NCBI GenBank assembly: GCA_964625685.1
Contig: CAZVBO010000003.1
Coordinates: forward strand, 64,298-128,297
Length of the DNA stretch: 64,000 nucleotides
Origin: an uncultured Pseudomonadales bacterium
GTDB taxonomy: Bacteria > Patescibacteriota > Microgenomatia > UBA1400 > PJMF01
Direction: 5' to 3'
Part shown: positions 2,895-51,595 of the stretch, in pieces
Position numbering within the stretch: the stretch's first letter is position 1
How the letters are laid out: each line of letters begins with the position of its first letter
Notes under the pieces: generated by a model
The model's input: only the letters and a program-made list of their open reading frames with translations
Told to the model about the DNA's origin: nothing
Database searches by the model: none
Position numbers and translations under genes: made by a program

Positions 2895-2948
2895 CGGCAA
2901 CGCAGAGAGGTAAACAATGTTACTTTTTTGCGTTGCCGATTGGCAACA
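2895..2948 (+). promoter_or_regulatory. Leader structure with mutually exclusive hairpins (CGGCAACGCA...TGCGTTGCCG, and GTTGCC-GATT-GGCAAC) upstream of the membrane-protein gene; candidate operator or attenuator
   Basis: The 10-bp arms 2895-2904 and 2919-2928 pair. The GTTGCC segment (2922-2927) can instead pair with GGCAAC (2932-2937). The same palindrome recurs at 4153-4170. Confidence 0.35.
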
Positions 2949-2988
2949 CTAAAGTAAAAGCGCAACTAGTCCAAAAAAGGAGAAAAAC

Positions 2989-4011
2989 ATGGACGCGCAA
3001 CTAAGCAAAAGCAAGCCTCTCTGGTCAGTTTTCCTGATCGCATTGGGGTCAGCTCTGTTTCTGACCATCGAAAAAATCGTTGACAGTGTCATTAGCAATA
3101 ACTATGCCATTGCAAGCGATCCCATCACAGCGGCCTCAGCATACCTGTTTATCGGTGGCTGGTTTGGTCTGCTCGTTTCCATCGTTCTCGGTAAAGTTCT
3201 GGGTCGGCGTATTCCGGGTCACACCAAAATCGCCTTACCCAGCGCACTGCCGATGCGTCTTTCAGTTTTCGCTGGCATCTCGGCGGCCTTTGCCACTCTG
3301 CTGTTCCTCTGGGGCAATCAGCTCTTTGACCTCAGCATCATGGTAGCCATCTCAAACGGCTACGTATTGATGATCGTCATCTACGAGTGGATGGCTGGTA
3401 AGATCAAGGCTAACAAGTTCTTGCTCCCTGGCCTACTGACCGTGGTGAGCACGGTGCTTGTGGCATTCAACCCTGAGTGGTGGAATGACAGTGCGGTACT
3501 GCATGATGAAGCAGCGAAGTTGTTGATCATCTTCCTCGGCTTCAATCTGTTGGTCGCTTTTGATCGGCTGGTTACCAAGCCTGCCGTCGATCATAGCGAT
3601 CCCATCAATGTGCAGGTTGTCCGTATTGGTACACTCGCTATCACGGGGACTCTGTCTGCCTTCGTTTTGGCAATTACCCGTCAGGAATTCCCAGCCTTTG
3701 TGGAAGCATGTTCGAATATCATCACGTCTCCCGCTGTGTACTTCTTCCTGTTTTTGCTGTTCGCAGCAGTTTTTCTGGGCCAGGTTCTGGAACTGTGGGC
3801 GAAGCAGATCAACGTTGATGTATCCAGCATCGTGATCGTAATCGGACTCCATGTCGGTTTGGGATTTGTGGCCGCGTTGGTCATCGATGCCATTGCTCCC
3901 GGATTTGTAGGTGAGGTACCCGCAGAATGGACCACGCGAATCGTGCGCTTAATCGGTGTTGCCGGTTTGATCTTTGCCACTGTTCTCTTGCAGAACAAAA
4001 AGGCGAAGTAA
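2989..4011 (+). CDS. Polytopic integral membrane protein (~10 predicted TM helices), possible transporter; family unassigned
   Basis: 340-aa ORF with an AGGAG-like RBS (aaaaaggagaaaaac ATG). Hydrophobic helices throughout. GC-richer codon usage than the flanks. Confidence 0.55.
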   Translation: MDAQLSKSKPLWSVFLIALGSALFLTIEKIVDSVISNNYAIASDPITAASAYLFIGGWFGLLVSIVLGKVLGRRIPGHTKIALPSALPMRLSVFAGISAAFATLLFLWGNQLFDLSIMVAISNGYVLMIVIYEWMAGKIKANKFLLPGLLTVVSTVLVAFNPEWWNDSAVLHDEAAKLLIIFLGFNLLVAFDRLVTKPAVDHSDPINVQVVRIGTLAITGTLSAFVLAITRQEFPAFVEACSNIITSPAVYFFLFLLFAAVFLGQVLELWAKQINVDVSSIVIVIGLHVGLGFVAALVIDAIAPGFVGEVPAEWTTRIVRLIGVAGLIFATVLLQNKKAK

Positions 4012-7831: not shown

Positions 7832-8299
7832 TTACAGTCCAACGCTGTCAGCACCGTAAGCAGCTTGTTCAGTGGTGAAACCTTCAAATTCTAGTTGTTT
7901 TATAAGACCATCTCTTGAGAAGCCTGACAAATCTTGATAGCTTTTAGCCTTTTTGGCAGCCTGTTCATTCCAGTCTGGACTAATTTTATCTACTGCGTAG
8001 GTAGCATCTTCTGTTGAGAATTTTTCAAATTCGAGCTGCTTGATTAAGCCACTTCTTGAAAAACCTGTCATACTGAGGTAAGAATTTGCTTTTCTAACAG
8101 CATTCTTCTGTGCTGTAGTCTCATTGGAAGTTTCTTCGACTTCGGCTGCTTCCTTAGCGTCACCTTTTTCCATTACTTCTGCTGATGGAGTTGAGTTATC
8201 AGATTTAGGTGTTTCATCTCCTGAACCAGCGATGGCGCCAATAACAAAGAGTACTACTAATGCGATAGCACCCCATTTGAGTAATTTTTTCATATTCAT
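7832..8299 (-). CDS. Ltp-family (phage superinfection-exclusion type) membrane-anchored protein with two tandem repeat domains
   Basis: N-terminal TM/signal region. Two repeats of KA(N/K)SY..(M/L)(T/S)GFSR.GLIKQLEFE.F(S/T)(T/E)E.A.Y.(V/A)D, matching the host cell surface-exposed lipoprotein (Ltp) repeat. Confidence 0.55.
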   Translation of the reverse strand: MNMKKLLKWGAIALVVLFVIGAIAGSGDETPKSDNSTPSAEVMEKGDAKEAAEVEETSNETTAQKNAVRKANSYLSMTGFSRSGLIKQLEFEKFSTEDATYAVDKISPDWNEQAAKKAKSYQDLSGFSRDGLIKQLEFEGFTTEQAAYGADSVGL

Positions 8300-8360
8300 C
8301 CTTTATTTGGTATTTCTATCTGGGTGGTTCCAATATTATCACAATCTTTCTATATATGGA

Positions 8361-8636
8361 ATGGCTAAATATGGAAAGCACAACCAGAATAAAGATGTGC
8401 CAATAAGTATCAAAAATGACCAGTATCTGCCATATCGTGAGAAGCTTGGTGAAAGAATCAAGGACCTCAGGAAGAAGCGTGGACACACTCAGGAAAGCTT
8501 TGCTCTTGATGTAGTAAAGATGAACGTGTCTTATTTGGCGAAGATTGAAAACGGTTACGTCAACACATCTGTAAACTACCTTATCCGCATCGCCAAGGGC
8601 CTGAATGTGAAGGTCCGTGACTTGATTGAGTTCTAA
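8361..8636 (+). CDS. XRE-family (Cro/C1-type HTH) transcriptional regulator
   Basis: HTH signature ...GHTQESFALDVVKMNVSYLAKIENGYVNTSVNYLIRIAKGLNV. Start taken at MAKYGKH; the long ORF from 8124 is rejected. Confidence 0.65.
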   Translation: MAKYGKHNQNKDVPISIKNDQYLPYREKLGERIKDLRKKRGHTQESFALDVVKMNVSYLAKIENGYVNTSVNYLIRIAKGLNVKVRDLIEF

Positions 8637-8722
8637 ACTTCCTTTTTTTTGCTTCACTTTCGTGCTTTTTACTGGTAATCTGGTCTAACTCGTATTCAAA
8701 AAGTGTAAAAAAGTATCGAACC

Positions 8723-37279: not shown

Positions 37280-38159
37280 GGTAACCATTATTACACTCAA
37301 TCCCCGAACAGTACTCTTTTGTCTCTAGCTCTATAGTAGAGTGCTCTATGTGATGATTTGAAAGCTCGTCTTTGATGACTTTTCTAGTCTTGTCAGTATC
37401 TTTCAAAAGACTTTCGTCAACAACTATATGTCCCGTAAAGATATCCGTCTCGCCCTCCAGTGACCAAACATGAATATCATGGACTCCCAATACGCCCTTT
37501 GTTTTCATCAACCCCTCTTTAATATGATTTATGTCAATATGCCCAGGAACGCCTTGCAAAAATATATTTAGGGTTTCTTTAAGGTTCTTACCCACACCCC
37601 AGAGAATAAAGACCGTATAACCAATAGTCATTATCGGATCAACGATATGGCTGTCCCAAAAAAGAATAATGATACTACCTATAAGAACAACAACCCATCC
37701 TAATACATCTTCCAATAAATGCCAGGTTAACACCTTTTCATTCATGCTGGCGCCTCTTTTTAATCTCAAAGCGCCCGCTCCATTAACAACGACACCCAAT
37801 ACTGCCAGAAGAATCATACCCTGGGCATTAACGTGCTCGGGATTAATAAGGCGGGGAATGGCTCTTGAGAGAATAAAAAGTGAGCCTCCGGTAAGCACTA
37901 TCCCTGCAAAGATTGCAGATAAAAGGGATAATCGCTGGTAGCCGAAAGTACGCCGCTGATCGGGTTCCTTTTGAGACTTTTTCTCTAAAACATACGAAGA
38001 AATTAAAGTAACCGAATCACCAAAATCATGCAGGGCATCTGATAGGATTGTTAAACTGTTTGTTAATAATCCTCCGACAACTTCTACAACTGTAAAGAAA
38101 ATATTTAGAGCGACTACAACTTTGATATTTTCTGATCTTTTGTTTTCGTGATTGTGCAT
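37269..38159 (-). CDS. Cation diffusion facilitator (CzcD-like) metal efflux protein
   Basis: Six TM helices with an HDxxD-like LHDFGD motif. C-terminal cytoplasmic domain. Confidence 0.75.
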   Translation of the reverse strand: MHNHENKRSENIKVVVALNIFFTVVEVVGGLLTNSLTILSDALHDFGDSVTLISSYVLEKKSQKEPDQRRTFGYQRLSLLSAIFAGIVLTGGSLFILSRAIPRLINPEHVNAQGMILLAVLGVVVNGAGALRLKRGASMNEKVLTWHLLEDVLGWVVVLIGSIIILFWDSHIVDPIMTIGYTVFILWGVGKNLKETLNIFLQGVPGHIDINHIKEGLMKTKGVLGVHDIHVWSLEGETDIFTGHIVVDESLLKDTDKTRKVIKDELSNHHIEHSTIELETKEYCSGIECNNGYHGI

Positions 38160-40893: not shown

Positions 40894-41208
40894 TTAATAC
40901 CTTGTGCACTTGAACAGCTCTTTTGAGTGTTGGCTGACAATCTTTCGCGCCTTTTTGATAACCTCTTTTACTTCGTCCCCTGATAGTTGATAGTATGAAT
41001 TTCGGCCTTCTCTCTTGTTTTGTACGAGCCCGCAATCTAAAAGACATGCCAAATGGGTTGAGGCGTTCGGCTGCGACAGCTTTGTTTCTTTAACTATTTC
41101 TGAAACAGTTTTTGGGCCGTCCAAAATGGTTTCTAATATTGAAAGCCGAGACTGGTCAGCGAATCCTTTAAAAAGTTTAGCTTCTAGTTGCACTTGTCTT
41201 CTAGTCAT
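40894..41208 (-). CDS. ArsR/SmtB-family metal-sensing repressor
   Basis: LSILETILDGPKTVSEIV...ASTHLACLLDCGLV. Confidence 0.7.
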   Translation of the reverse strand: MTRRQVQLEAKLFKGFADQSRLSILETILDGPKTVSEIVKETKLSQPNASTHLACLLDCGLVQNKREGRNSYYQLSGDEVKEVIKKARKIVSQHSKELFKCTRY

Positions 41209-41218
41209 AGTAATATAA

Positions 41219-41242
41219 ATATATCAGTAATCACTTATATAT
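41219..41242 (+). promoter_or_regulatory. 12-0-12 imperfect inverted repeat ATATATCAGTAA/TCACTTATATAT in the divergent arsR-dsbA intergenic region; candidate ArsR operator
   Basis: 10 of 12 positions symmetric. Located between divergent starts. Confidence 0.35.
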
Positions 41243-41256
41243 ACAACCTGATTAAT

Positions 41257-42003
41257 ATGAACATGGAAGAAACAATTCAATCCCAACAGCTTACAAAAAA
41301 AGAACGTCGGGAACTAAAAATACAGCGCAAATTAGAAGCTCGCAAAAAACAAGAACGACAAAAGCGGATTAAGAAAATTAGTCTATGGTCGGTTATTCTC
41401 TTGGGAGTTGTTGCAGTTATTTTTGCTTTTAAGCTAAGTGGTGGTTCATCGTCAGATCAACCCACTTTGTCAGTTGATGCAGTAGCTACCACTGATCAAA
41501 CCAAGGGCAACAGCGAATCAAAGGTATTGCTGGTGGAATATAGCGATTTTCAGTGTCCAGCTTGCGGCCGTTACTATCCACTTTTAAAGCAGTTAAATCA
41601 AGAATTGGGAGATAAAATTCAGTTTGTCTACAGACACTTCCCCTTAAGACAGGCACACCGTAATGCAGAACCAGCGGCATTTGCAGCAGAGGCAGCAGGC
41701 AGACAAGGAAAGTTTTGGGAAATGCACGATCTTATTTTTGAGGGACAAAAAAACTGGTCTGAAAAGGGAAACGCCAAGAAGACCTTTATTGAATATGCCG
41801 AGTCTTTGAATCTTGATATTGATAAATTTAAGACCGATATGGGATCAAAAGAGATAAAAAATAAGGTTAGAAATGATTATAGTAGTGGTATAAAAGCAGG
41901 AGTCAATTCCACTCCCACACTCTTTTTAAACGGTGAGAAGCTGCAGAATCCAAGAGATTATGAAGCATTGAAAAAGCTTGTCGAGGAATCATTGGGTCAA
42001 TAG
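41257..42003 (+). CDS. DsbA-like thioredoxin-fold protein (CPAC) with a K/R-rich N-terminus and TM anchor
   Basis: FQCPACGRYY. Confidence 0.6.
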   Translation: MNMEETIQSQQLTKKERRELKIQRKLEARKKQERQKRIKKISLWSVILLGVVAVIFAFKLSGGSSSDQPTLSVDAVATTDQTKGNSESKVLLVEYSDFQCPACGRYYPLLKQLNQELGDKIQFVYRHFPLRQAHRNAEPAAFAAEAAGRQGKFWEMHDLIFEGQKNWSEKGNAKKTFIEYAESLNLDIDKFKTDMGSKEIKNKVRNDYSSGIKAGVNSTPTLFLNGEKLQNPRDYEALKKLVEESLGQ

Positions 42004-42024
42004 CCGTGTATACGATAAAAGGAG

Positions 42025-42228
42025 GTGAGAATTATGTTTGAACAACCAATAAATTTCTGGTCAAAGCATGTTATCCTGTCAAATCTGTCTCATTTTTCAG
42101 GCGGATTTGGAGCAGCTGTTTTGTTGCAGCACTATCTCGCTGGCAACGTATTTTTGCCAGCAATTGTCGGATGGCTTGCTATTGCTTTTACATTAATAAC
42201 ACACTTTATTGCTTATACTAGTAAGTAA
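42025..42228 (+). CDS. Small membrane protein (67 aa)
   Basis: AGGAGG RBS and two hydrophobic helices. Confidence 0.35.
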   Translation: MRIMFEQPINFWSKHVILSNLSHFSGGFGAAVLLQHYLAGNVFLPAIVGWLAIAFTLITHFIAYTSK

Positions 42229-42296
42229 GTGGAAAGACTGGGTAATTAAATAAGGAAGTGATAACTTATGAACTGGAAAGAAGTAAAGCAAATAAA

Positions 42297-43511
42297 ATGA
42301 ATATCACAAAAATAAGACAAGACTTTCCCCTGCTACAGTACGGTCTGAAGGGCAAGCCCGTCGTCTATTTTGACAACGCTTGCCAGACACTACGACCTTT
42401 ATCTGTTATTGACGCTGTTAATCAATACTACCGGGAGTATCCGGCCTGTGCTGGGCGTAGTGTGCACAAATTGGGAGAGCTTGTAACTAAAAAATGTGAT
42501 GAGGCCAGAAAATTAGTAGCTGATTTTATTGGCGCTAAAAGGAAAGAAGAGATTATCTTTACCAGAAACACCACCGAAGGGATAAACTTAGTTGCTCATT
42601 CCTTGGGATTAAGAACAGGTGACATTGTCATTACCACCGACAAAGAACACAATTCTAACTTGGTTCCTTGGCAAAGACTGGCTCAAAAAATCGGCATTAT
42701 TCACAAGATTGTTCCTTCAAAAAAAGACAACACCTTTAACCTGGAAGCCTTTGCAGAAATCATGAATGATAAAGTGAAACTGGTTTCCATGGTTTACACC
42801 TCAAACTTGGATGGTGTTACCATTCCGGCTGAAAAGATTATAAAAATTGCCCACAGTCACGGAAGCAAAGTCTTACTGGATGCTGCTCAAGCAATCCCTC
42901 ACCAGAAAATAAATGTCAGGAAACTTAATGTAGATTTCTTAGCCTTTTCAGGACATAAAATGCTGGGCCCATCAGGCACGGGCGTGCTTTATGGTAAATA
43001 TAAACTTCTGGAAGAACTGGAACCATTTTTAGTAGGCGGTGATACGGTTGAATACTCCACCTACAAAGATCATCAATTCCTGCCTTTACCTGAGAAATTT
43101 GAGGCAGGACTACAAAACTATGCTGGTATTGTTGGATTAGGAGAAGCGGTTAAATATTTGGAGCAGGTTGGTTTAAAAAACATTGTCGGGCAAGAATACA
43201 AATTAAACAAATTTATAACTAATGAGCTAACCAAAATTGCCCGGATAAAAATCATCGGTCCTCAAGACCCTGCATTGCGAGGGGGAATAGTGTCTTTTTG
43301 TGTTGAAGACGTAGATCCACATCAGATCGCACTTATCTCAGATGAATCGTCCAACATCATGATTCGTTCTGGTCAGCACTGCGTTCATTCCTGGTTTAAT
43401 GCTCACAATATCCCAGGATCGGCCAGAGCATCACTGTATTTTTATAACACTCTTGAGGAAGCGGAAACATTTATTACCAATTTACAAAAGACCGTTAAGC
43501 TTTTAACCTGA
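42297..43511 (+). CDS. Cysteine desulfurase-like class V aminotransferase (SufS/NifS-like)
   Basis: PLP-lysine region SGHKMLGPSGTGVLYG. Active-site Cys context SGQHCVH. Start taken at MNITKIRQ. Confidence 0.7.
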   Translation: MNITKIRQDFPLLQYGLKGKPVVYFDNACQTLRPLSVIDAVNQYYREYPACAGRSVHKLGELVTKKCDEARKLVADFIGAKRKEEIIFTRNTTEGINLVAHSLGLRTGDIVITTDKEHNSNLVPWQRLAQKIGIIHKIVPSKKDNTFNLEAFAEIMNDKVKLVSMVYTSNLDGVTIPAEKIIKIAHSHGSKVLLDAAQAIPHQKINVRKLNVDFLAFSGHKMLGPSGTGVLYGKYKLLEELEPFLVGGDTVEYSTYKDHQFLPLPEKFEAGLQNYAGIVGLGEAVKYLEQVGLKNIVGQEYKLNKFITNELTKIARIKIIGPQDPALRGGIVSFCVEDVDPHQIALISDESSNIMIRSGQHCVHSWFNAHNIPGSARASLYFYNTLEEAETFITNLQKTVKLLT

Positions 43512-43514
43512 ATT

Positions 43515-44441
43515 ATGTTTTGTCTACTTGCTTTAATCATATTTTCTATTCTGGGTATCTTTAGCGCCAGTCATAGACAGTTGGCTAAAGAAGCTTTTGA
43601 CTGCGTTTTTAGAAGAATAACACTGCGTCCTTGTAACACCGGCTTTGATAAAAAAATAAAAAGTAAGATTGTCGGCAAACTGTTAAATAGATCAGAGTTT
43701 GTAGCTAAGCTACTGAACAAGCACTTTGAAATGGTCTCGTGGGTTTTCTTTATCATACTTTTGGGGAGTGGTTTATGGGTAGTAAAAGGAGGATACAACT
43801 TTTATATGTATGGCAGCTGTAACGGCCTGAATGCCTCAGGTTTCTGCGCATTTGACCCAACAGGAGAAAATAACAAGGTCTCTCAAATTAGTGATAGCTG
43901 TAGTTTAAATCCTCCCTCAGAAAGCGACTTGGATTTAGCAGCAATCAACTTGAGTGAGTATCCTACGAAAGATGCCGGCTCAGAAGATAGCTTAGTATTT
44001 ATCGGCTGTTACAACTGCGATTATACCCGTAAAGCCTATCCGTTGATACAAAAATTGCAAGATAACTATGAATTTAATTACACTTTTGTTCATTTCCCTG
44101 TTAAAGATGAAACTTCGTATATATCCAACTATGTTTATTGTGGCAATTTGCAAGATCCAGAAAAACTTTGGCGGTTCAATGGTAAATTATTTGCTTCAAG
44201 TAAGGAGGATGTTTCTAACAATGGGTATGTAGATAAAATTGCAGTAGAAGTGGGATTTGATGTTGATGCCTTACAAGCATGCGTTACAAGTGAAGAAACG
44301 CAAAAGATAGTTGATAATCAATTTGAACAAGTACGCGCAACCGGAATTTACGGCACTCCCACTATTTTTATCAATGACAAGGCCCTGGTAGGTCCTAAGC
44401 CATACAGGGTTTATCAAAGAATGCTGGGGAAGTTTTGGTAA
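43515..44441 (+). CDS. Membrane-anchored DsbA-like thioredoxin-fold protein (CYNC)
   Basis: N-terminal TM helices. FIGCYNCDYTRKAYP. Confidence 0.5.
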   Translation: MFCLLALIIFSILGIFSASHRQLAKEAFDCVFRRITLRPCNTGFDKKIKSKIVGKLLNRSEFVAKLLNKHFEMVSWVFFIILLGSGLWVVKGGYNFYMYGSCNGLNASGFCAFDPTGENNKVSQISDSCSLNPPSESDLDLAAINLSEYPTKDAGSEDSLVFIGCYNCDYTRKAYPLIQKLQDNYEFNYTFVHFPVKDETSYISNYVYCGNLQDPEKLWRFNGKLFASSKEDVSNNGYVDKIAVEVGFDVDALQACVTSEETQKIVDNQFEQVRATGIYGTPTIFINDKALVGPKPYRVYQRMLGKFW

Positions 44442-44468: not shown

Positions 44469-45101
44469 TCACCTGGCAAGCTTTTCTGGGGATTGGTTTT
44501 TGTAGGTGTCAATATATTTCTGAAGTAAAGCTTGGTCTACTTCCTCTAACTTCATCATCCTGCTCCAAGATACAACTGCAATTTTTGCGTCATTAGCATT
44601 CCTGGGCGAAATAATCACGCTTTGAGAATTTTGCTTTCCAATTTCTTCCAGTATGTTTTTTGTCTCCTCATCCACATTCTTATAGGAGATCCAAATACCT
44701 CCATGCTCTAGTCCATGAACTGCTGCTTTGTCCTCTATTTCTTTGCTGTAAACACCCCATTTTTCCGCTTGGGCTAAGTGTCCACCCGAAGTGGGAGGGT
44801 TAGTCTTGTATTCAACAGTGGTTCCTAACGGCACATGATCTCTGCCTTCGATCGGAAACTCTTCCACCTTTCCGTCCAGGGAAACCGTTTCAACTTTTTG
44901 TTCAAACTCAATCCGTTCAGGAGACTTTTTAGTTAGTTGTAGGTAGCCAAATATTGCAACAACTAGTACCACGATGACAAAACTCCAATTGCGGATCATT
45001 TTGATCGTCTCGGTTTTGCGTTCATTCTCCCGCCTCAACGCCTTGAGCTTTTTCTTGCGCTCGTGCTTGGGTAGCTCGTTCCATTCTTCTGGATAATCCA
45101 T
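44469..45101 (-). CDS. DUF3105-like membrane-anchored protein
   Basis: Start at MDYPEEW, 1 nt after the upstream stop. HGLEHGGIWISY motif. Confidence 0.4.
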   Translation of the reverse strand: MDYPEEWNELPKHERKKKLKALRRENERKTETIKMIRNWSFVIVVLVVAIFGYLQLTKKSPERIEFEQKVETVSLDGKVEEFPIEGRDHVPLGTTVEYKTNPPTSGGHLAQAEKWGVYSKEIEDKAAVHGLEHGGIWISYKNVDEETKNILEEIGKQNSQSVIISPRNANDAKIAVVSWSRMMKLEEVDQALLQKYIDTYKNQSPEKLAR

Positions 45102-45102
45102 G

Positions 45103-45744
45103 TTAGTGTCCTTCTCCTTCCCCCGTGTGGCCAGGGCCACCACAGCCGTCCAGCATATCCCAGAGATCAGCCACCTGCTGACCGTCATAGCCCTTTTCAG
45201 CAATAAGATACTTGGCTAAGCCTTCAAACGCCGTCCAGCGCCAACATTTACAGCAACAAGGTCCGCCTTCATCGGACATTTCCATGGCAGTGTCATATAT
45301 GGACTGCTGATCTTCATTTAAGGTAATAGTCTGTTGGTATTCGAAAAGTTGCTTGGCTAGAGCTACGGGAATGTTGTATGGATCCTCGGGAATAACATCT
45401 ATATCGGAATATTTTTTTAGCCTTTCAACCTGTTCCTGATAACGATGAAAGTCCATGGCTCCACAACAGGCTCCCTGAATACTCTCTTCATCTGAAAAGC
45501 CGTCAACAGTCGTTGGTTGCAGCCCACAAAAACTACTAGTGGCTGTTTTTGTGGTTGAAAGATAGTTAAATGCCTCTTGAGTTCCGGCAGCAAAGGCAGA
45601 TTTAACTCCGAAAGTGGCATTTTTTGAGCCGTTTCCAAAAATGTCATTTAAGTTAAATTTAAGACCGCCTGTAGCGCCTACGCCGACAACGAAAGACAAC
45701 ACAACTGCACCCAAGATTAAAAAATAGGAATATTTCTGTTTCAT
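45103..45744 (-). CDS. Secreted Cys-rich hypothetical protein
   Basis: Signal peptide. GACCGAMDFH, GGPCCCKCW and DGCGGPGH. Confidence 0.4.
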   Translation of the reverse strand: MKQKYSYFLILGAVVLSFVVGVGATGGLKFNLNDIFGNGSKNATFGVKSAFAAGTQEAFNYLSTTKTATSSFCGLQPTTVDGFSDEESIQGACCGAMDFHRYQEQVERLKKYSDIDVIPEDPYNIPVALAKQLFEYQQTITLNEDQQSIYDTAMEMSDEGGPCCCKCWRWTAFEGLAKYLIAEKGYDGQQVADLWDMLDGCGGPGHTGEGEGH

Positions 45745-46280
45745 GATGTACTTCTTACCCCACACACGAGTGGGTCATTAATTTTTTTCATAGTAAAGTG
45801 AATAGCAAACAATATAACGCCTATGCCCAAGAAACCGAATTCCTGACCTCTAAAGGGAAGGAATCCCAACACAGCCGTAGCCGTTCCAAAGCCAATAAGA
45901 GAAGTTAAAACTACCGACCCACAAGAAGCGCAGCCTACTCCCAACAAGCTGGTTGCTACTCCCAGAGTCGACATACCCATGGACCGCTGCAATTTAGCAG
46001 TTTGACGCGTGTAATAACCTAAGAGGCTCACCTGTACCCCTGCCAATCCAGCACTAACAAAAGTTACAGCCCGCGAAAGCGCGGTGAAGTTAGTTTGCAA
46101 AGAACCCAACAGACTAGTCATGAGATTGGTTTTCTGCCACAAAGTCATGGTTGAACTAGTCATAGTCTTGGTTATTAAATGAAGATTTGGCAACCAGGCG
46201 GCAAAAGCAATTACAGCCAATGAGACTGTAATTGCCACTGCTAAATATTTCGGTTGTCTAATTATTTCTATAACTGTCAT
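45741..46280 (-). CDS. Integral membrane protein with GCASCG in a TM helix (possible membrane thiol oxidoreductase)
   Basis: Polytopic. ATGA overlap with the downstream gene. Confidence 0.4.
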   Translation of the reverse strand: MTVIEIIRQPKYLAVAITVSLAVIAFAAWLPNLHLITKTMTSSTMTLWQKTNLMTSLLGSLQTNFTALSRAVTFVSAGLAGVQVSLLGYYTRQTAKLQRSMGMSTLGVATSLLGVGCASCGSVVLTSLIGFGTATAVLGFLPFRGQEFGFLGIGVILFAIHFTMKKINDPLVCGVRSTS

Positions 46281-46282
46281 GG

Positions 46283-47056
46283 TTACTCTAGTAATGGGTC
46301 AATCACTGCCTGGAAAGCAGCGTATGGCTGAGCACCCACTACTAAGTCACCATCAATTTCACCATTGCCAGCTGACTTACCAATCACAAAGGTGGGGGTT
46401 CCCGATGCCCCAGCCGCAGATCCGTCCGCAATATCCTTTTTGACTTCATCCGTTTGGGAGGTATCAGCGATACAGGTATTAAACGAATTTAGATTTAATC
46501 CCAAATCAGTAGCAATAGTTGTCAGATCAGCACCAGATAAACCATTGCCGTTTGATTTGGTTCGGGTAAAGATCTCGTCATGATACTGGAAGTATTTGGA
46601 GTCACCCCCTTGCTCACGGGCACAGTTGGCAGCTACTGCTTCTTTGGTGGCCATCGGATCATGGAAAGATAACGGGAAATCCCGATAGACGATTTTTACC
46701 TTGCCAGTATCCACATAATTTTTGATTAACTGAGGTAAGGTTTCGTCAAAGTGGCGTTTACAAAACGGACATTCATAGTCAGAAAATTCTACAATAGTAA
46801 TTGGTGCGTTTTTATCTCCCAGAACAGGGTCGTCATCAACCGATGCCACACCTTTGGTGGGTTGCTGGGGCTGAGGAGCGGCAGCCTGAGCAGGTTGTTG
46901 ATTATTAATTGAACCTTGCACTGTTCCTTTTTCCAGCATCTGCACTTTGGTATAGAGGGAACCAACTAAAAAGGCAGCCACTACTAAAGCTGCGGTCAAT
47001 ATGGGAACTAATTTCCCGGAAAAAAGCTTCGTTGTTAGTTTTGTAGTTTCACTCAT
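46283..47056 (-). CDS. DsbA-family thiol:disulfide oxidoreductase (CPFC), membrane-anchored
   Basis: FSDYECPFCKRHF. Confidence 0.65.
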   Translation of the reverse strand: MSETTKLTTKLFSGKLVPILTAALVVAAFLVGSLYTKVQMLEKGTVQGSINNQQPAQAAAPQPQQPTKGVASVDDDPVLGDKNAPITIVEFSDYECPFCKRHFDETLPQLIKNYVDTGKVKIVYRDFPLSFHDPMATKEAVAANCAREQGGDSKYFQYHDEIFTRTKSNGNGLSGADLTTIATDLGLNLNSFNTCIADTSQTDEVKKDIADGSAAGASGTPTFVIGKSAGNGEIDGDLVVGAQPYAAFQAVIDPLLE

Positions 47057-47123
47057 ATGCTCTCCTTAAAAGTTTGACAGGCTTTACTATCTCCTACAAC
47101 TGTAGGTGATTATTTTTCTCTTG

Positions 47124-48119
47124 TCAATGAGAAGATGAAAGCGAAAAAGAAGCGGGCACTAAGGGAGTAAAATTATGTGTATCTTTGGTCTCATGACCGG
47201 AGCAATCAGTGGTTTGACATCCCTCTTCCACCCTACAAACACCACCCGTTTCAAAAGCAAATTCAGCAGCTACCTGACTTGGCTGAACAATGGCAATTCC
47301 CAACATTAGGGCTAGGCTAAATATACTCACGGACAATGGCTTCATGCCAATCCGCTCAAACGAGAGCTTGTTGCCTACCAAAGATTCAACTCGTCTTTCA
47401 ATCGGCGAGGTGGCAAAGTGCGGAAAAGAGTCGCCAGCATACTGTAAATTCAGCGCCAGTGAGCCACACAGATGGTCCCGTGTTTTTTGCTTATCAACCA
47501 CGAAGGCATCTGCCGCTAATTCAAACTCAGTCCTCAGCTCTCGAGCCAGGTGCTCAATCAGCGGAATAAAGAAAAACAGAGAACTGATCAATCTGGAGAA
47601 CAGTAGCCATAAGACATGATTGCTTCGAAGATGATACAACTCATGGAGAATCACCGCTTCCAATTGTTCTCTTGAGAGTTTTTGGATTAACAACCGAGAA
47701 ACAACAATTTTGGGTTTAATTAAACCAATAGTATATGCACTCAATTTACCACCTTTGACTACTAAAATTGTCTTTTCTGTAAGGTCGTGCTTATTTATGA
47801 TCCACTGCAACTTGTCGGGTGTTCTCTCGATCGCCCTGAGTTGGTGTAGTCGCCGGTGAGCTATCAAAAACCGTACCAATTGCCGCAATGCCAAGCCAAC
47901 TCCAACGGCAGCAATCAGCAATACGAACGAGGACACTACGCCGTCAGGATTAAAGTGAATGTGTTCGCCGACATCCTTCAGGATTTCACCACAGGCAGTA
48001 ATGAAAAACTGAGGATGCAGACTGGTTTTAGTAGCTAGCAAATATGATCCCAGCAAAAAGATGGCGCTTGAGACGACTACGAATATGGTAAATAGATTAA
48101 TCCTTATTTTTATTCTCAT
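47124..48119 (-). CDS. M56-family (BlaR1/MecR1-like) zinc metalloprotease signal transducer with a short Cys-rich C-terminal tail
   Basis: HELYHL (HExxH). N-terminal TM helices. C-terminal TM then CRVEEGCQTTDCSGH. No beta-lactam sensor domain. Confidence 0.6.
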   Translation of the reverse strand: MRIKIRINLFTIFVVVSSAIFLLGSYLLATKTSLHPQFFITACGEILKDVGEHIHFNPDGVVSSFVLLIAAVGVGLALRQLVRFLIAHRRLHQLRAIERTPDKLQWIINKHDLTEKTILVVKGGKLSAYTIGLIKPKIVVSRLLIQKLSREQLEAVILHELYHLRSNHVLWLLFSRLISSLFFFIPLIEHLARELRTEFELAADAFVVDKQKTRDHLCGSLALNLQYAGDSFPHFATSPIERRVESLVGNKLSFERIGMKPLSVSIFSLALMLGIAIVQPSQVAAEFAFETGGVCRVEEGCQTTDCSGHETKDTHNFTPLVPASFSLSSSH

Positions 48120-48520
48120 TTTTTCTGTAATTTCTCTATTAGCTTCTGGCGAGTATCTTCTGAGATATCATCCAAACCGTCCACAAAAGCAATCAAAGCT
48201 TCCTCACCAAACTGGCCAGTGAAGTTTCCCATTGTCTGATTAATCAGGGATGACAAAATGTTTTTTTGCTTGGCTGCCGGTTTATAGACATGAGTTTTGC
48301 CCTGCAATTTTCTTTTAAGCAACCCTTTGTCCACCAAGCGGGTCATGATGGTTTGCACGGTGTTGTAAGCGATCTCCCGATCCTGGCTAATACAATCCAC
48401 AATATCTCTGGCCGTACAGGTTTTCTTTTCCCAAATACAAGCCATCACTTCCTGCTCCAGCGGTCCCAAAGAAACTTTTTTCATACCTACAAGTGTAGGA
48501 CTAAATACACAATATTTCAA
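48116..48520 (-). CDS. BlaI/MecI/CopY-family transcriptional repressor
   Basis: LGPLEQEVMACIWEKKTCTARDIV...YNTVQTIMTRLVDKGLL. Start overlaps the M56 gene. Confidence 0.7.
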   Translation of the reverse strand: MKYCVFSPTLVGMKKVSLGPLEQEVMACIWEKKTCTARDIVDCISQDREIAYNTVQTIMTRLVDKGLLKRKLQGKTHVYKPAAKQKNILSSLINQTMGNFTGQFGEEALIAFVDGLDDISEDTRQKLIEKLQKK

Positions 48521-49586: not shown

Positions 49587-50012
49587 ATGAAAGACAAATC
49601 AGTAGCAAAACCAACAGAAAAACTTATAAGGAAGATTGGTCAATTCTTGGTCAAAAATTGGTCGACTTTTCAGGGTGGGCAGCATGTGGGCAAAATGAGG
49701 GCAGATTTAGAGGAGTTTAAGGCTAAACAGGGTGTACAAAAGGTGGACAGAAATAGGACAGAAAACCTGCACCAACTCTTCGTCAAAACTGCGCCAACTA
49801 AGGTTCACCGGTGCTTCACTGAAACTTCACCGGATTTTGGAAGCTTTAGCCTAAAAACCCTTCGGTATGGTGACGGTGAAATGTCGGTGGTTTTTGACCC
49901 TTCATTTGTCCTGTTTCCGCGTATAGCCCAGTATATGCGGAAAGTCCTGATTCAATTTGATATTCCCTCGAGTTACCTATATGTTGTTGTGTTGAAAAGA
50001 GTCTGCCTATGA
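49587..50012 (+). CDS. Hypothetical protein (141 aa)
   Basis: ORF whose stop overlaps the recombinase start. Confidence 0.3.
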   Translation: MKDKSVAKPTEKLIRKIGQFLVKNWSTFQGGQHVGKMRADLEEFKAKQGVQKVDRNRTENLHQLFVKTAPTKVHRCFTETSPDFGSFSLKTLRYGDGEMSVVFDPSFVLFPRIAQYMRKVLIQFDIPSSYLYVVVLKRVCL

Positions 50013-51595
50013 AAAGCGTTATATTCTGCCGAGTCTCCAGCAAAGAACAAGAAGAAACGGGCTACTCCCTCCCGGCGCAGGAGAAGTTCCTGCGAGAATA
50101 TGGCGACAAGCAAGGCTTGGAGGTTAAAAAGGTCTTTGCCATCTCTGAGTCTGCAGCAGGCAAAAGCCAACGCAAGGTCTTTGAGGAAATGATCGCCTAT
50201 GTCAGAAAACAAAATATTTGTGCCATCATTGTCGAAACCACGGACCGTTTAACCCGTAACTTCTCTGATGTGCCCACCATCGACCTCTGGATCACCGAGA
50301 GTGAAGAACACCAAATCCACTTGGCCAAAGAAGCCTGCATCTTGCACAACTCTTCCCGCTCACACGAATGGTTTATGTGGCGAGTCAAAGTTGCTACCGC
50401 TGAATATTATGTCCGCCTGCTTTCCGAGAACGTTAAGAAGGGACAAAAAGAAAAACTGGCTCAGGGCTGGCTGCCAACCAGACCACCACTAGGATATAAA
50501 ACCGTTGGCGAAACCGGTCACAAGATCCACATTGTTGATGAAGGTGCTTCTAAACTAGTGATCAAGATGTTTGAACTTTATGCCTCCGGCGATTATTCCA
50601 TCAAGAAACTGGCCAACACCATGTATCAAGAAGGCATGAGATCTCCTCAGGGCAACAGGCTGGCCATCAGCCGAACTCACTCCCTACTGCGCGATCCTTT
50701 CTATATGGGTAAGATTAGATGGAATGATGAAATTTACGAAGGCAAACAAGAGCCATTAATCAGTAAAGAATTATTTGATAAGGTTCAGAAGTTACTTAAA
50801 AGCAAAACCACTCCCACTTATATGAAACACAGCTACTTATTCAAAGGCTTAATTCGCTGCACTACCTGCAAAGGGCTGATTACCTGGGAACTACACCGAG
50901 GTCATCGCTACGGACACTGCAACCACTACAACAAATGCCCTCAGAAAACATGGGTTAAGGAGCCTGGGACCGAAGAACAACTCTTGAGAGGATTTGAGAA
51001 TCTAAGAATTAAGAACAAACGAGTCACCGAATGGCTCAAAAAAGCACTCAAGGAAAGCCATCAGGACGAAGTCCAGTATCACAACAGCACTGTGGGCGAA
51101 CTAGAAACCCGCTATGAGGCGGTTAGTAGACGAATGGACAAGTTATACGATGACAAACTTGATGAAAAAATCACTCAGGAGTTTTATAACCGTAAGTTTA
51201 AGCAGTACTCCAAAGAAAAAGACGAACTCACCGAAACCATTAAACGCCACTCCACCGCCAGCACAGGTTATCTTAACCTAGGCATTAATCTATACGAACT
51301 CTCGCAACGAGCCAAAGAAATCTACCTCACTGCCAAAAAGAAGGACATGCTGGACGAACAACGCGCCCTTATCAGACTGGTATTCAAAAAGCTCATCTTA
51401 GACGAAGGCAAACTCAGCTGGGAGTACTCCCGAGCCTTTAAGATCCTGTCTGAGGCAGTAAGTCAGACAAATTGTTCTAAAGTGGAAAATTTGGAGGGTT
51501 TGGAAAAAGAAACTTTCGAACATCACGAAAAGAGCGATGTTACGGGACAAAAAGACTCTTTGTCGCCCTCTCATCCCATCTGGCTCCCCGAGTAG
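50009..51595 (+). CDS. Large serine recombinase (second copy)
   Basis: VIFCRVSSKEQ, resolvase domain, recombinase domain, zinc ribbon CTTCKG...HCNHYNKC, coiled coil. The last 15 nt overlap the tRNA-Asn 3' end. Confidence 0.85.
   Translation: MKSVIFCRVSSKEQEETGYSLPAQEKFLREYGDKQGLEVKKVFAISESAAGKSQRKVFEEMIAYVRKQNICAIIVETTDRLTRNFSDVPTIDLWITESEEHQIHLAKEACILHNSSRSHEWFMWRVKVATAEYYVRLLSENVKKGQKEKLAQGWLPTRPPLGYKTVGETGHKIHIVDEGASKLVIKMFELYASGDYSIKKLANTMYQEGMRSPQGNRLAISRTHSLLRDPFYMGKIRWNDEIYEGKQEPLISKELFDKVQKLLKSKTTPTYMKHSYLFKGLIRCTTCKGLITWELHRGHRYGHCNHYNKCPQKTWVKEPGTEEQLLRGFENLRIKNKRVTEWLKKALKESHQDEVQYHNSTVGELETRYEAVSRRMDKLYDDKLDEKITQEFYNRKFKQYSKEKDELTETIKRHSTASTGYLNLGINLYELSQRAKEIYLTAKKKDMLDEQRALIRLVFKKLILDEGKLSWEYSRAFKILSEAVSQTNCSKVENLEGLEKETFEHHEKSDVTGQKDSLSPSHPIWLPE

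What the first reader, a model, noticed from the sequence alone, without database searches (positions are those of the whole stretch)
47124..48520. BlaR1-like M56 protease / BlaI-CopY-like repressor pair inside a metal island, with a Cys-rich tail instead of a beta-lactam sensor
The 331-aa M56 protein has the HELYHL zinc-protease motif. It lacks the C-terminal penicillin-binding sensor and ends in a short CRVEEGCQTTDCSGH tail after a final TM helix. It overlaps a BlaI/MecI/CopY-family repressor.

CopY-family repressors regulate copper operons, so this pair may be a proteolytic derepression switch that senses metal or thiol stress rather than antibiotic.
Basis: partly seen in the sequence, partly recalled or inferred. 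Interest (0 to 1): 0.55.

Follow-up and report, generated by a model that had tools for sequence, protein, structure and literature searches.

The report
Cysteine-sensing BlaR-like protease–repressor switch
A membrane protease and its partner repressor, relatives of the staphylococcal penicillin-sensing pair, have swapped the penicillin-binding domain for four conserved outward-facing cysteines. They appear to switch on an operon of exported thiol/disulfide-handling proteins in copper-resistance islands of uncultured ultra-small (CPR) bacteria.

Summary
ORF 47124-48119(-) is an M56 zinc protease and ORF 48116-48484(-) is a BlaI-family repressor; they overlap by 4 bp.

- The tail cysteines are conserved (62-63 of 63 homologues), as is a loop cysteine (63/63).
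- None of the 20 repressors carries the CopY CxCx4CxC motif.

New findings:
- Two exact 14-bp palindromes, CCTACAnnTGTAGG, overlap the -10 of the pair's own, probably leaderless, promoter and of a second promoter.
- The second promoter drives a DsbA-like / CxxC-membrane / Cys-rich / DUF3105 operon.
- Genes, promoters and operators keep this layout in CPR loci down to 27% identity, mostly beside copper genes.
- In relatives the CxxC-membrane slot holds CcdA.
- Of 111 full-length representatives, 102 have one loop Cys plus three or one tail Cys.

Best reading: a BlaR1-type proteolytic switch in which thiol chemistry between the EL1-like loop and the tail replaces beta-lactam acylation. Copper is the likely trigger. 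This is inferred, not shown.

Sensor-less M56/BlaI pairs are common, and a copper-dependent one (PetRP) is known. This is therefore a new variant of a known kind, but an unusually testable one.

The parts
48116..48484 (-). BlaI/MecI/CopY-family winged-helix repressor, 122 aa. It has no C-terminal CxCx4CxC motif. 'ALIA|FVDG' aligns with the MecI/BlaI N101|F102 cleavage site.
   Evidence: Pfam PF03965 at E 1.1e-27. PDB matches to MecI at 1.3e-9 and M. tuberculosis BlaI at 1.1e-8. Alignment of 20 family repressors. Translation checked.
47124..48119 (-). M56 (BlaR1-like) membrane zinc metalloprotease, 331 aa, with no penicillin-binding domain.
   Evidence: Pfam PF05569 at E 3e-19. Profile against PDB BlaR1 at E 4.4e-10. 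Foldseek best hit is S. aureus BlaR1 8exq at E 3e-6. H159, E160, H163 and E200 are invariant in 63/63 homologues.
47631..47645 (-). HELYH zinc-binding motif, residues 159-163. The third ligand is E200 in EFELAAD, the ExxxD motif.
   Evidence: Compared with the H201ExxH / E242xxxD motifs of BlaR1 (PMC9834060).
47955..48032 (-). Predicted extracytoplasmic loop, residues 30-55, in the position of BlaR1 EL1. It carries Cys43 (63/63), Glu45 (60/63), His53 (60/63) and His55 (61/63).
   Evidence: Window FNPDG 56-60 aligns with BlaR1 F97NWDS, which follows EL1 residues 56-96. Positive-inside count.
47127..47273 (-). Predicted extracytoplasmic C-terminal tail, residues 283-331, holding Cys295-x5-Cys301-x4-Cys306 (47202-47237) and a terminal NFTP...PASFS motif.
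   Evidence: C295 is conserved in 62/63, C301 in 63/63 and C306 in 63/63, against a mean of 0.54 for the other tail columns. The three-Cys motif is kept, with variable spacing, in distant relatives.
48486..48499 (.). Operator O1, CCTACACTTGTAGG. It overlaps the -10 of the pair's own promoter and ends 2 nt before the repressor ATG.
   Evidence: Exact palindrome. The same box is in the same place in 12 of 13 closer loci, and a spacing variant in the distant ones.
48492..48520 (-). Promoter P_blaI: TTGAAA, 17 nt, TACACT. The ATG lies 7-8 nt after the -10, so the mRNA is probably leaderless.
   Evidence: Promoter scan, 9/12 matches. Conserved in homologous loci.
47093..47106 (.). Operator O2, CCTACAGTTGTAGG. 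It overlaps the -10 of the promoter for the downstream thiol-handling operon.
   Evidence: Exact palindrome. Conserved in the M56-DsbA intergenic region of nearly all loci.
47099..47127 (-). Promoter P_dsbA: TTGACA, 17 nt, TACAGT. Its -35 overlaps the M56 stop codon.
   Evidence: Best promoter-like site in the region, 10/12 matches. The layout is conserved down to 27% identity loci.
46283..47056 (-). Membrane-anchored DsbA-like thioredoxin-fold protein with a CPFC active site. First gene of the regulated operon.
   Evidence: Pfam Thioredoxin_4 at 1.9e-29 and DSBA at 2.8e-18. PDB DsbA at 2e-18 and ScsC proteins at about 1e-7. Single N-terminal TM segment.
45741..46280 (-). 179-aa membrane protein with GCASCG inside a hydrophobic segment. 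It matches no known family. It occupies the slot that holds CcdA/DsbD_TM in related loci.
   Evidence: No Pfam or NCBIfam hit. Slot comparison. CcdA confirmed in L016 and L026 and in L098.
45103..45765 (-). Exported Cys-rich protein (CC ... CCCxC ... C). A variable member of the operon.
   Evidence: A homologue follows M56 directly, behind its own operator-like box, in L020.
44469..45101 (-). Membrane-anchored DUF3105 protein. Last gene of the operon.
   Evidence: Pfam PF11303 at 3.9e-28. Syntenic in almost all loci.

Best explanation
This is a BlaR1/BlaI-type proteolytic derepression switch in which a minimal cysteine sensor stands in for the penicillin-binding domain.

Repression. The repressor binds two 14-bp palindromes, CCTACAnnTGTAGG. 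Each overlaps the -10 hexamer of a promoter. One is its own, probably leaderless, promoter. The other drives an operon for exported thiol/disulfide machinery: a DsbA-like protein, a CxxC membrane protein in the CcdA slot, a Cys-rich protein and DUF3105.

Sensor. The M56 protease keeps its zinc site on the cytoplasmic side. It exposes two short segments outside: an EL1-like loop (Cys43, His53, His55) directly upstream of the signalling helix, and a 49-residue tail (Cys295, Cys301, Cys306).

Proposed mechanism.
- Copper reaching the cell surface bridges loop and tail. It does so either as Cu(I) held by the thiolates or by catalysing a loop-tail disulfide.
- This changes the loop-tail contact, as beta-lactam acylation changes the EL1-sensor contact in BlaR1.
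- The protease is activated and cuts the repressor at or near Ala-Phe in its dimerisation helix.
- Both promoters open.
- The induced thiol-reducing/isomerising pathway repairs exported cysteines and resets the sensor.

Shown here: gene identities, catalytic residues, Cys/His conservation, operators at both promoters, and conserved synteny.

Inferred: topology, loop-tail contact, copper as the trigger, repressor cleavage, and the feedback reset.
For: Family membership
- Pfam and NCBIfam hits, a PDB profile hit to BlaR1 at E 4.4e-10 and a Foldseek top hit to BlaR1.
- HExxH and E200 are invariant in 63/63 homologues.

Topology
- The positive-inside count places loop 28-55 and tail 276-331 outside.
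- Window F56NPDG aligns with BlaR1 F97NWDS, immediately after EL1 residues 56-96. EL1 signals through helix alpha3 (PMC9834060).

Cysteine conservation
- C43 63/63, C295 62/63, C301 63/63, C306 63/63, H53 60/63 and H55 61/63. The other tail columns average 0.54.
- The motif persists in CPR relatives at 27-42% identity.
- Of 111 full-length representatives, 81 have 1 loop + 3 tail Cys and 21 have 1 + 1.

Regulon
- The window holds only two exact 14-bp palindromes. Both sit on the -10 of the two best promoter-like sites.
- The same layout recurs in nearly all loci checked.
- All operon products are membrane-anchored and exported.
- The mem179 slot holds CcdA in L016, L019, L021, L026 and L098.

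Copper link
- About 15 of the 19 loci carry a multicopper oxidase, an HMBD P-type ATPase, CsoR, YHS, Csp, cupredoxin or other metal-associated genes within a few kb.
- PetP, a sensor-less M56 protease, degrades its BlaI-type repressor only when copper is present.

Repressor
- No CopY Cys motif in 20/20. The P1' Phe of the BlaI/MecI cleavage site is conserved in all 20.
Against: - No experiment exists for any member of this family.
- The AF2 model gives pLDDT below 50 for the loop and the tail, so loop-tail proximity is not supported structurally.
- The copper and zinc exporters and the multicopper oxidases carry no operator. They sit beside their own CsoR or ArsR, so the copper link is by neighbourhood only.
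- The even-Cys pattern and the variable Cys spacing fit disulfides at least as well as a metal site.
- The DsbA-like protein matches oxidising DsbA/MdbA-type proteins better than ScsC.
- P1 of the putative cleavage site is Ala, not Asn.
- 4 of the 19 loci show no recognised copper gene, though my query set was limited.
Confidence: 0.5

Rival explanations
1. A copper-independent redox feedback sensor. The loop and tail cysteines are substrates of the DsbA-like/CcdA-like pathway that the switch controls. Their oxidation state reports whether exported-protein thiol chemistry is in balance. Any oxidant, reductant or overload shifts that state and turns the protease on, and the induced pathway restores it.
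For: - The regulon consists of thiol-disulfide proteins, not metal exporters.
- 105 of 111 representatives have an even number of extracytoplasmic Cys, either 1+3 or 1+1. This is the pattern expected of disulfide-bonded exported segments (the expectation itself rests on my own knowledge of cysteine-parity analyses).
- The spacing varies (Cx3-6Cx3-5C), which a metal site tolerates less easily.
Against: - The conserved His53/His55 (one His in distant relatives) beside the loop Cys are not needed for a pure disulfide switch.
- The module is almost always embedded in copper islands.
- The only sensor-less M56 protease with a known signal responds to copper.
Confidence: 0.22
2. The cysteines are purely structural. 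They staple the loop and tail into a small extracytoplasmic knot that recognises some other, unidentified ligand, such as an envelope fragment, a peptide or a partner protein like DUF3105. Alternatively they only stabilise the protein.
For: - The tail also carries a conserved non-Cys motif, N-[FY]-[ST]-P ... PASFS.
- An N-x-S/T motif lies in the last 30 residues in 60 of 111 representatives.
- Signals of other sensor-less BlaR proteins (CenR, PvmS, mycobacterial BlaR) remain unknown.
Against: The only genes with operators are thiol/disulfide proteins. A thiol-based input is therefore the most economical match between sensor and output.
Confidence: 0.15
3. The repressor itself is the sensor. 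Two cysteines in its winged-helix domain (Cys16 and Cys31) bind metal or oxidise in the cytoplasm. This releases DNA or exposes the cleavage site, and the protease merely clears it.
For: - Cys16 is present in 14/20 and Cys31 in 17/20 family repressors.
- The three repressors that lack Cys31 also lack Cys16.
- MecI and BlaI have neither.
Against: - These cysteines are missing in several family members whose protease still keeps all four sensor cysteines.
- The CopY CxCx4CxC site is absent.
- The strict conservation of extracytoplasmic Cys in the protease would be left unexplained.
Confidence: 0.08
4. An ordinary beta-lactam resistance regulator (BlaR1/MecR1).
For: The automatic JGI annotation reads 'beta-lactamase regulating signal transducer'.
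Against: - There is no transpeptidase/PBP domain, only 49 residues after the last helix.
- NCBIfam BlaR1 scores 43.6 bits against a cut-off of 400.
- Pfam scans of about 37 of the window's 77 ORFs of at least 100 aa, including every one from 31.6 to 53.3 kb around the pair, found no beta-lactamase or PBP, and none was seen near the pair in the related loci.
Confidence: 0.01

Closest known systems
BlaR1/BlaI and MecR1/MecI of Staphylococcus aureus (beta-lactam-sensing proteolytic derepression)
   Same: - M56 gluzincin protease with HExxH...ExxxD on a membrane scaffold.
- An adjacent, translationally coupled winged-helix repressor.
- TACA/TGTA palindromic operators, with autoregulation.
- An EL1-like loop upstream of the signalling helix.
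- A conserved P1' Phe in the repressor.
   Different: - No penicillin-binding sensor domain; a 49-residue three-Cys tail takes its place.
- One fewer N-terminal TM helix.
- P1 is Ala instead of Asn.
- The regulon is a thiol-oxidoreductase operon rather than a beta-lactamase or PBP2a.
- The NCBIfam equivalog cut-off is not reached.
PetR/PetP of Synechocystis sp. PCC 6803 (copper-dependent degradation of a BlaI-type regulator by a sensor-less M56 protease)
   Same: - A sensor-less M48/M56 membrane protease whose start codon overlaps the stop codon of a BlaI-type regulator lacking CopY copper ligands.
- Candidate ligands lie in the loop equivalent to EL1.
- The signal is copper, not an antibiotic.
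   Different: - PetP's candidate ligands are two Met in a 14-residue loop, and it has no Cys tail.
- The PetR operator is GACN5GTC, and its regulon is petE/petJ (cofactor choice, not stress defence).
CopY/TcrY copper repressors of Firmicutes
   Same: - The same winged-helix family (PF03965).
- The same TACAnnTGTA 'cop box' core.
   Different: - CopY senses Cu(I) itself through a C-terminal CxCx4CxC and needs no protease. That motif is absent in all 20 repressors here.
- TIGR02698 scores 57.6 bits against a cut-off of 121.95.
Other sensor-less ('atypical') BlaIR systems: M. tuberculosis/M. abscessus BlaIR, C. difficile CenIR, P. aeruginosa PvmSR
   Same: M56 plus BlaI pairs with short C-terminal regions containing no known domain. 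This is the commonest M56 architecture.
   Different: Their signals are unknown, and the parts of these papers I read report no conserved sensor residues. Here a conserved Cys/His set, a small defined regulon and a copper context point to a specific input.
Envelope thiol-reducing pathways linked to copper tolerance (ScsABCD of Salmonella/Proteus; CcdA with thioredoxin-like partners). This comparison concerns the regulated operon only.
   Same: A DsbA-fold protein paired with a DsbD/CcdA-type membrane electron conduit in a copper context. ScsC structures are detectable relatives of the DsbA-like protein at E about 1e-7.
   Different: - In the window the conduit slot holds an unrelated CxxC membrane protein.
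- DUF3105 and the Cys-rich protein have no Scs counterpart.
- To my knowledge Scs is controlled by other regulators, not by a BlaI/M56 pair.
- The redox direction of the window's pathway is not established.

Membership tests
Peptidase M56 (BlaR1-like membrane metalloproteases) | M56 domain above Pfam's gathering score | tested here: met
   PF05569 at E 3e-19, 69.8 bits against a cut-off of 31.
Peptidase M56 (BlaR1-like membrane metalloproteases) | Gluzincin ligands HExxH plus a downstream ExxxD | tested here: met
   H159, E160, H163 and E200 are conserved in 63/63 and D204 in 62/63. They align with H201ExxH / E242xxxD of BlaR1.
Peptidase M56 (BlaR1-like membrane metalloproteases) | BlaR1-like fold of the TM/protease region | tested here: met
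   Foldseek top hits are 8exq, 8exp, 8exs and 8exr, with E from 3e-6 to 1e-4 and probability 1.00. TM-score is only about 0.44. Model core pLDDT is 80-96.
Peptidase M56 (BlaR1-like membrane metalloproteases) | A BlaI-type repressor gene adjacent | tested here: met
   4-bp overlap in the window. The repressor is adjacent in all 28 complete related loci examined.
BlaR1/MecR1 beta-lactam sensor-transducers (sensu stricto) | C-terminal extracellular penicillin-binding (transpeptidase) domain with SxxK | tested here: not met
   Only 49 residues follow the last helix, with no PF00905 hit. NCBIfam blaR1_generic scores 43.6 bits against 400, and sensor_BlaR1 25.7 against 1200.
BlaR1/MecR1 beta-lactam sensor-transducers (sensu stricto) | [quoted passage not shown] | tested here: not met
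   Operators lie only at the pair and at the DsbA-like operon. Pfam scans of about 37 of the window's 77 ORFs of at least 100 aa, including every one from 31.6 to 53.3 kb around the pair, found no beta-lactamase or PBP.
BlaR1/MecR1 beta-lactam sensor-transducers (sensu stricto) | Signal-dependent cleavage of the repressor at N|F in the dimerisation helix; autocleavage of the protease | not testable with these tools
   The sequence shows A|F at the aligned site, with Phe conserved. F235, E241 and R243 are invariant in a low-confidence cytoplasmic loop that could be an autocleavage loop.
CopY/TcrY copper-responsive repressors | C-terminal CxCx4CxC Cu(I)/Zn(II) site | tested here: not met
   Absent in the window protein and in 19 family members.
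CopY/TcrY copper-responsive repressors | Equivalog score (TIGR02698) | tested here: not met
   57.6 bits against a cut-off of 121.95.
CopY/TcrY copper-responsive repressors | TACAnnTGTA operator ('cop box') | tested here: met
   Boxes at 48488-48497 and 47095-47104, extended to CCTACAnnTGTAGG and conserved in position across loci.
PetR/PetP-type copper-dependent proteolytic switch | Sensor-less M56 protease translationally coupled to a BlaI-type regulator that lacks CopY ligands | tested here: met
   compared with the description.
PetR/PetP-type copper-dependent proteolytic switch | Copper-dependent degradation of the regulator | not testable with these tools
   Only the genomic association with copper genes is available.
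PetR/PetP-type copper-dependent proteolytic switch | Conserved Met pair in the EL1-like loop; GACN5GTC operator; petE/petJ regulon | tested here: not met
   The loop has Cys43/His53/His55 and no conserved Met. The operator is CCTACAnnTGTAGG. The regulon is the DsbA-like operon.

The most novel reading that the evidence does not exclude
The family is a reversible thiol-switch receptor. A cysteine in the EL1-like loop and cysteines in the C-terminal tail are bridged by Cu(I) or by a copper-catalysed disulfide. That single chemical event replaces beta-lactam acylation as the trigger of a BlaR1-type protease. The induced CcdA-type/DsbA-like pathway then reduces the bridge and resets the receptor. 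That would make it a self-resetting version of what in staphylococci is an irreversible, single-use receptor. It would also give the first defined input chemistry for the large class of sensor-less M56/BlaI systems, and the first described envelope stress response of CPR bacteria.
Probability: 0.35. Interest if true: 0.7.

Novelty: new variant of a known kind. Interest (0 to 1): 0.52.

Why it matters
Only about 6% of M56/BlaR-like proteins have a beta-lactam sensor. For almost all the others, the signal is unknown (PMC13492132).

This family gives an unusually complete and testable picture:
- a four-residue candidate sensor, conserved from 27% to 100% identity;
- a two-promoter regulon with exact operators;
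- an output (exported thiol/disulfide machinery in copper islands) that suggests the input.

If the thiol or copper trigger is confirmed, several things follow.
- It would show how the BlaR1 signalling scaffold can be re-tooled with a few residues instead of a domain.
- It would extend the PetRP copper precedent from cofactor choice to stress defence.
- It would describe how ultra-small, uncultured CPR bacteria, which carry this module on mobile elements, sense damage at their surface.

The CxxC membrane protein that replaces CcdA, and DUF3105, would gain a functional context.

Tried and rejected
- **AF2 model of the protease** (67-sequence alignment), run to see whether the four cysteines meet. 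The core is confident, but the loop and tail have pLDDT below 50, so nothing can be said about their geometry.
- **Third TACAnnTGTA box in the window** (38085-38094). It lies inside the CDF coding sequence (TM1 motif), has no -35 and lacks the CC/GG flanks. Rejected as chance.
- **Box upstream of the multicopper oxidase in L001/L002.** It lies inside a small Cys-rich ORF. Rejected, so no operator links the repressor to copper genes.
- **DUF3105.** No PDB relative by sequence. The one paper that holds the term mentions it once and is about antimicrobial cyclopeptides; I did not read it.
- **mem179 and cys220.** No family assignment in Pfam or NCBIfam.
- **Host identity.** Contigs carrying the identical protein are unnamed Logan assemblies. 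CPR assignment rests on the names of homologues. Several MAG titles reading 'Pseudomonadales' or 'Gammaproteobacteria' conflict with this, and I take them to be binning or naming artefacts, untested.
- **Direct comparison with PetP.** Not possible, because its sequence was not retrievable with these tools.
- **Literature searches for this CPR module.** Nothing found.
- **Beta-lactam sensing.** Considered and rejected on domain content.
Full report
**1. Observation**

- 47124..48119(-) encodes a 331-aa protein. It matches Pfam Peptidase_M56 at E 3e-19, 69.8 bits against a cut-off of 31.
- HELYH lies at residues 159-163. The tail C295RVEEGCQTTDC306 follows the last hydrophobic helix.
- There is no transpeptidase domain. 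The NCBIfam BlaR1 equivalog scores 43.6 bits against a cut-off of 400.
- 48116..48520(-) matches Penicillinase_R at E 1.1e-27. It overlaps the protease gene by ATGA.
- The repressor's real start is the ATG at 48484, giving 122 aa. All homologues start with MK..SLGPLE, and a conserved promoter and operator lie inside the longer TTG-started ORF.

The neighbourhood is a metal/thiol island bounded by a serine recombinase. Next to the recombinase come a GIY-YIG gene, rpoD and dnaG. The island holds:
- an HMBD P-type ATPase, DUF302, SHOCT, a CDF transporter and a second P-type ATPase with ArsR;
- three DsbA-like genes, SufS, rhodanese/DUF1573 proteins and a CcdA-like protein;
- a two-component system.

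**2.

*Is the Cys tail conserved?* Yes.
- A database search found 67 relatives of about 329 aa.
- In the 63 family members (35-100% identity), C295 is present in 62, C301 in 63 and C306 in 63.
- The other tail columns average 0.54 conservation.
- An additional cysteine, C43, in the loop between the first two helices, is present in 63/63. It is flanked by E45 (60/63), H53 (60/63) and H55 (61/63).
- CPR relatives at 27-42% identity keep the loop Cys, one loop His and a three-Cys tail, with spacing Cx4Cx3C instead of Cx5Cx4C.

*Does the repressor carry the CopY CxCx4CxC?* No, in none of 20 family repressors. TIGR02698 scores 57.6 bits against a cut-off of 121.95.

Neither test refutes the idea.

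**3. How large and how uniform is the family?**

- A profile search of 1.84 billion representatives gave 45,828 M56 hits. Of these, 103 reached E <= 1e-30, and the best 150 were nearly all 220-361 aa.
- 110 of those 150 have a three-Cys motif in the tail, with spacing Cx3-6Cx3-5C.
- Among 111 full-length representatives, 81 have one loop Cys plus three tail Cys, and 21 have one loop Cys plus one tail Cys.
- 105 of the 111 have an even total.

A loop Cys together with at least one tail Cys is thus the constant feature. This suggests that loop and tail are partners, in a disulfide or a shared metal site. That is an inference from counts, not from structure.

**4. Topology and relation to BlaR1**

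- The protein matches S. aureus BlaR1 by sequence profile (E 4.4e-10, window 54-228 against BlaR1 97-277).
- It also matches by fold. The Foldseek top hits are 8exq, 8exp, 8exs and 8exr, best E 3e-6. The AF2 core has pLDDT 80-96.
- Window F56NPDG aligns with BlaR1 F97NWDS.
- In the BlaR1 cryo-EM structure, EL1 (residues 56-96) is the extracellular loop that sits in the sensor domain's active site. A beta-lactam displaces it, and helix alpha3, directly downstream, carries the movement to the cytoplasmic HExxH...ExxxD site, which lies on re-entrant helices (PMC9834060).
- Window loop 30-55 therefore sits in the EL1 position. The tail sits where the sensor domain is attached.
- Lys+Arg counts agree with an N-in / loop-out / protease-in / tail-out arrangement: 3 in residues 1-8, 2 in 28-55, 17 in 75-169, and 2 in 276-331.
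- The hydrophobic stretch 170-188 cannot be a full crossing. H159/H163 and E200 must share one active site.
- AF2 gives no usable geometry for the loop or the tail, where pLDDT is below 50.

**5. Regulon**

- TACAnnTGTA occurs three times in the window. The extended palindrome CCTACAnnTGTAGG occurs exactly twice, at 48486-48499 and 47093-47106. There is no further site within one mismatch. By my arithmetic, about 0.004 exact sites are expected in 64 kb.
- Each palindrome overlaps the -10 of one of the two best promoter-like sites in the region: TTGAAA-17-TACACT (48520-48492) and TTGACA-17-TACAGT (47127-47099).
- At the first promoter the repressor ATG lies 7-8 nt after the -10. This implies a leaderless, autoregulated mRNA.
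- The -35 of the second promoter overlaps the protease stop codon. A 35-nt leader with AAGGAG precedes the DsbA-like gene.
- Both layouts recur in nearly every related locus. Distant loci use a CTACAnnn(n)TGTAG spacing variant. The 1+1-Cys subfamily shares the layout.
- The third window box (38085) is inside the CDF coding sequence. A box near the multicopper oxidase of L001 is inside a small ORF. Both are discounted.

The repressor therefore controls the pair itself and the downstream operon. It does not control the metal exporters.

**6. What the operon encodes**

- The operon encodes a membrane-anchored DsbA-like protein (CPFC; best PDB relatives are DsbA at 2e-18, ScsC proteins at about 1e-7).
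- It also encodes a 179-aa membrane protein with GCASCG in a hydrophobic segment and no family assignment, an exported Cys-rich protein, and a membrane-anchored DUF3105 protein.
- The order BlaI-M56-DsbA-[membrane protein]-DUF3105 is kept in every locus with enough flank. This covers L001, L004, L007, L009 and L012-L026, down to 27% identity. Named hosts include Pacebacteria, Saccharibacteria, Collierbacteria, Woesebacteria and WWE3.
- In L016, L019, L021, L026 and L098 the membrane-protein slot holds a CcdA/DsbD_TM protein instead (Pfam 1.7e-15 and 2e-20).
- CcdA carries reducing power outward to thioredoxin-fold partners (established knowledge). The operon therefore probably forms a thiol-reducing/isomerising pathway, and the window's CxxC protein is probably a non-homologous stand-in.

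**7. Copper context**

- About 15 of the 19 loci (the window included) have a multicopper oxidase, an HMBD P-type ATPase, CsoR, YHS, Csp, cupredoxin or other metal-associated genes within a few kb.
- Several loci sit next to type IV secretion and relaxase genes, so the module travels on mobile elements.
- The exporters have CsoR or ArsR beside them. Cytoplasmic metal sensing therefore seems to be handled separately.

**8. Mechanism proposed**

The repressor closes both promoters. Copper at the cell surface bridges the EL1-like loop and the tail, either as Cu(I) on the thiolates and His or by catalysing a loop-tail disulfide.
- This alters the pull on the alpha3-equivalent helix (residues 58-92).
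- The cytoplasmic protease is activated.
- The repressor is cut at or near Ala|Phe. 'EEALIA|FVDG' aligns with MecI 'LVLN|FVE', and the P1' Phe, nearly invariant in BlaI proteins, is conserved.
- The induced pathway repairs exported thiols and could reduce the sensor again.

The closest precedent is PetP, a sensor-less M56 protease that degrades the BlaI-type PetR only when copper is present, with candidate Met ligands in the same loop.

Shown: identities, conservation, operators, synteny.

Inferred: topology, loop-tail contact, the trigger, the cleavage and the reset.

I put 0.5 on this chain as a whole. About 0.85 applies to 'a repressor/protease switch controlling the DsbA-like operon', and about 0.6 to 'the extracytoplasmic cysteines are the sensor'.

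**9. Rivals**

- A copper-independent redox feedback sensor (0.22). It is favoured by the even-Cys pattern, the variable spacing and the nature of the regulon. The conserved His residues and the copper context count against it.
- Structural cysteines with another ligand (0.15). The conserved N-[FY]-[ST]-P...PASFS tail end is unexplained.
- The repressor's own Cys16/Cys31 pair as sensor (0.08). These are present in 14/20 and 17/20 repressors and are lost together in three.
- A beta-lactam sensor. Rejected.

**10. Comparison and novelty**

- It is a member of peptidase family M56 and of the BlaI/Penicillinase_R family.
- It is not a BlaR1/MecR1 sensu stricto, because it has no sensor domain and regulates no beta-lactamase.
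- It is not a CopY, because it lacks the Cys motif and falls below the equivalog cut-off.
- It works most like PetRP, but differs in ligands, operator and regulon.
- Sensor-less M56/BlaI pairs are the majority. Only about 6% of some 15,000 M56 proteins have a transpeptidase domain, and 96% sit next to a BlaI.
- Several have been studied without a known signal: mycobacterial BlaIR, CenIR and PvmSR.
- I found no description of this Cys-tailed CPR family or its regulon.

It is therefore a new variant of a known kind. It is not surprising in architecture, but it is valuable because it offers a concrete, mutable candidate sensor and a clean regulon for a class whose inputs are mostly unknown. Interest: 0.52.

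Noticed in passing
window 45741-46280 (-); compare L016 ~7889-8640, L026 ~2557-3310, L098 7757-8512: A 179-aa membrane protein with GCASCG inside a hydrophobic segment, and no Pfam or NCBIfam family, sits between the DsbA-like gene and DUF3105. In more distant loci the same slot holds a CcdA/DsbD_TM protein. It may be an undescribed, non-homologous membrane thiol electron conduit.
   Followed up: partly
window 48484-48520 (-): The repressor's ATG lies 7-8 nt after the -10 hexamer, with no Shine-Dalgarno sequence. This implies a leaderless mRNA. The arrangement is conserved across the family. Automatic gene calls (134 aa from TTG 48520, or 109 aa) mis-place the start.
   Followed up: partly
window 48394-48439 (-) (repressor residues 16-31): The repressors of this family carry two cysteines in the winged-helix domain, 'xCxW' and 'xC[IL]', in 14/20 and 17/20 members. 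MecI and BlaI lack them. The three members without the second also lack the first, so they may form a pair.
   Followed up: partly
window 47127-47174 (-) (protease residues 316-331): The extreme C-terminus of the tail is conserved beyond the cysteines (NFTP..PASFSLSSS). Distant relatives end in similar N-x-S/T-P or 'FSP' motifs, and N-x-S/T occurs in the last 30 residues of 60/111 representatives. I have no explanation. It might be a partner-binding or modification site.
   Followed up: no
window 45103-45765 (-): An exported Cys-rich protein (CC ... PCCCKCW ... C) with only a weak DUF5714 hit. It is a variable member of the operon. In L020 its homologue follows the protease directly, behind its own operator-like box.
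   Followed up: partly
window 41188-44441 (+): A SufS-type cysteine desulfurase (42258-43511) is flanked by two further DsbA-like genes. One of them (43515-44441) has a Cys-rich N-terminal membrane region and a CYNC site. This is an unusual pairing of a cytoplasmic sulfur-mobilising enzyme with exported thiol oxidoreductases.
   Followed up: no
window ~25200-51600: The whole stretch looks like an integrated mobile island. It ends at a large serine recombinase (50009-51595), with HTH_36 and DUF5659 genes beside it, and rpoD and dnaG lie just beyond. Homologous cassettes elsewhere sit next to type IV secretion, relaxase and ArdC genes. Island ends and att sites were not mapped.
   Followed up: partly
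window 38085-38094: TACAGTTGTAG, identical to 11 nt of operator O2, occurs inside the CDF transporter coding sequence (FTVVE of TM1). It has no promoter features. I judged it a chance match, but it has not been excluded as a weak internal site.
   Followed up: partly
L001 11726-11935: A small Cys-rich ORF with a GECCVFCSY-type motif lies between DUF3105 and the multicopper oxidase. It is another unannotated putative metal-binding peptide in these islands.
   Followed up: no
protein P0060: A 325-aa Levybacteria entry carries both Penicillinase_R and M56 domains. It is either a genuine repressor-protease fusion or a frameshifted gene call across the 4-bp overlap.
   Followed up: no
loci L012, L014, L016, L020-L022: Several MAGs carrying close homologues are titled 'uncultured Pseudomonadales' or 'Gammaproteobacteria', while the rest are CPR lineages. 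This reflects either mislabelled bins or transfer of the mobile island outside CPR.
   Followed up: no
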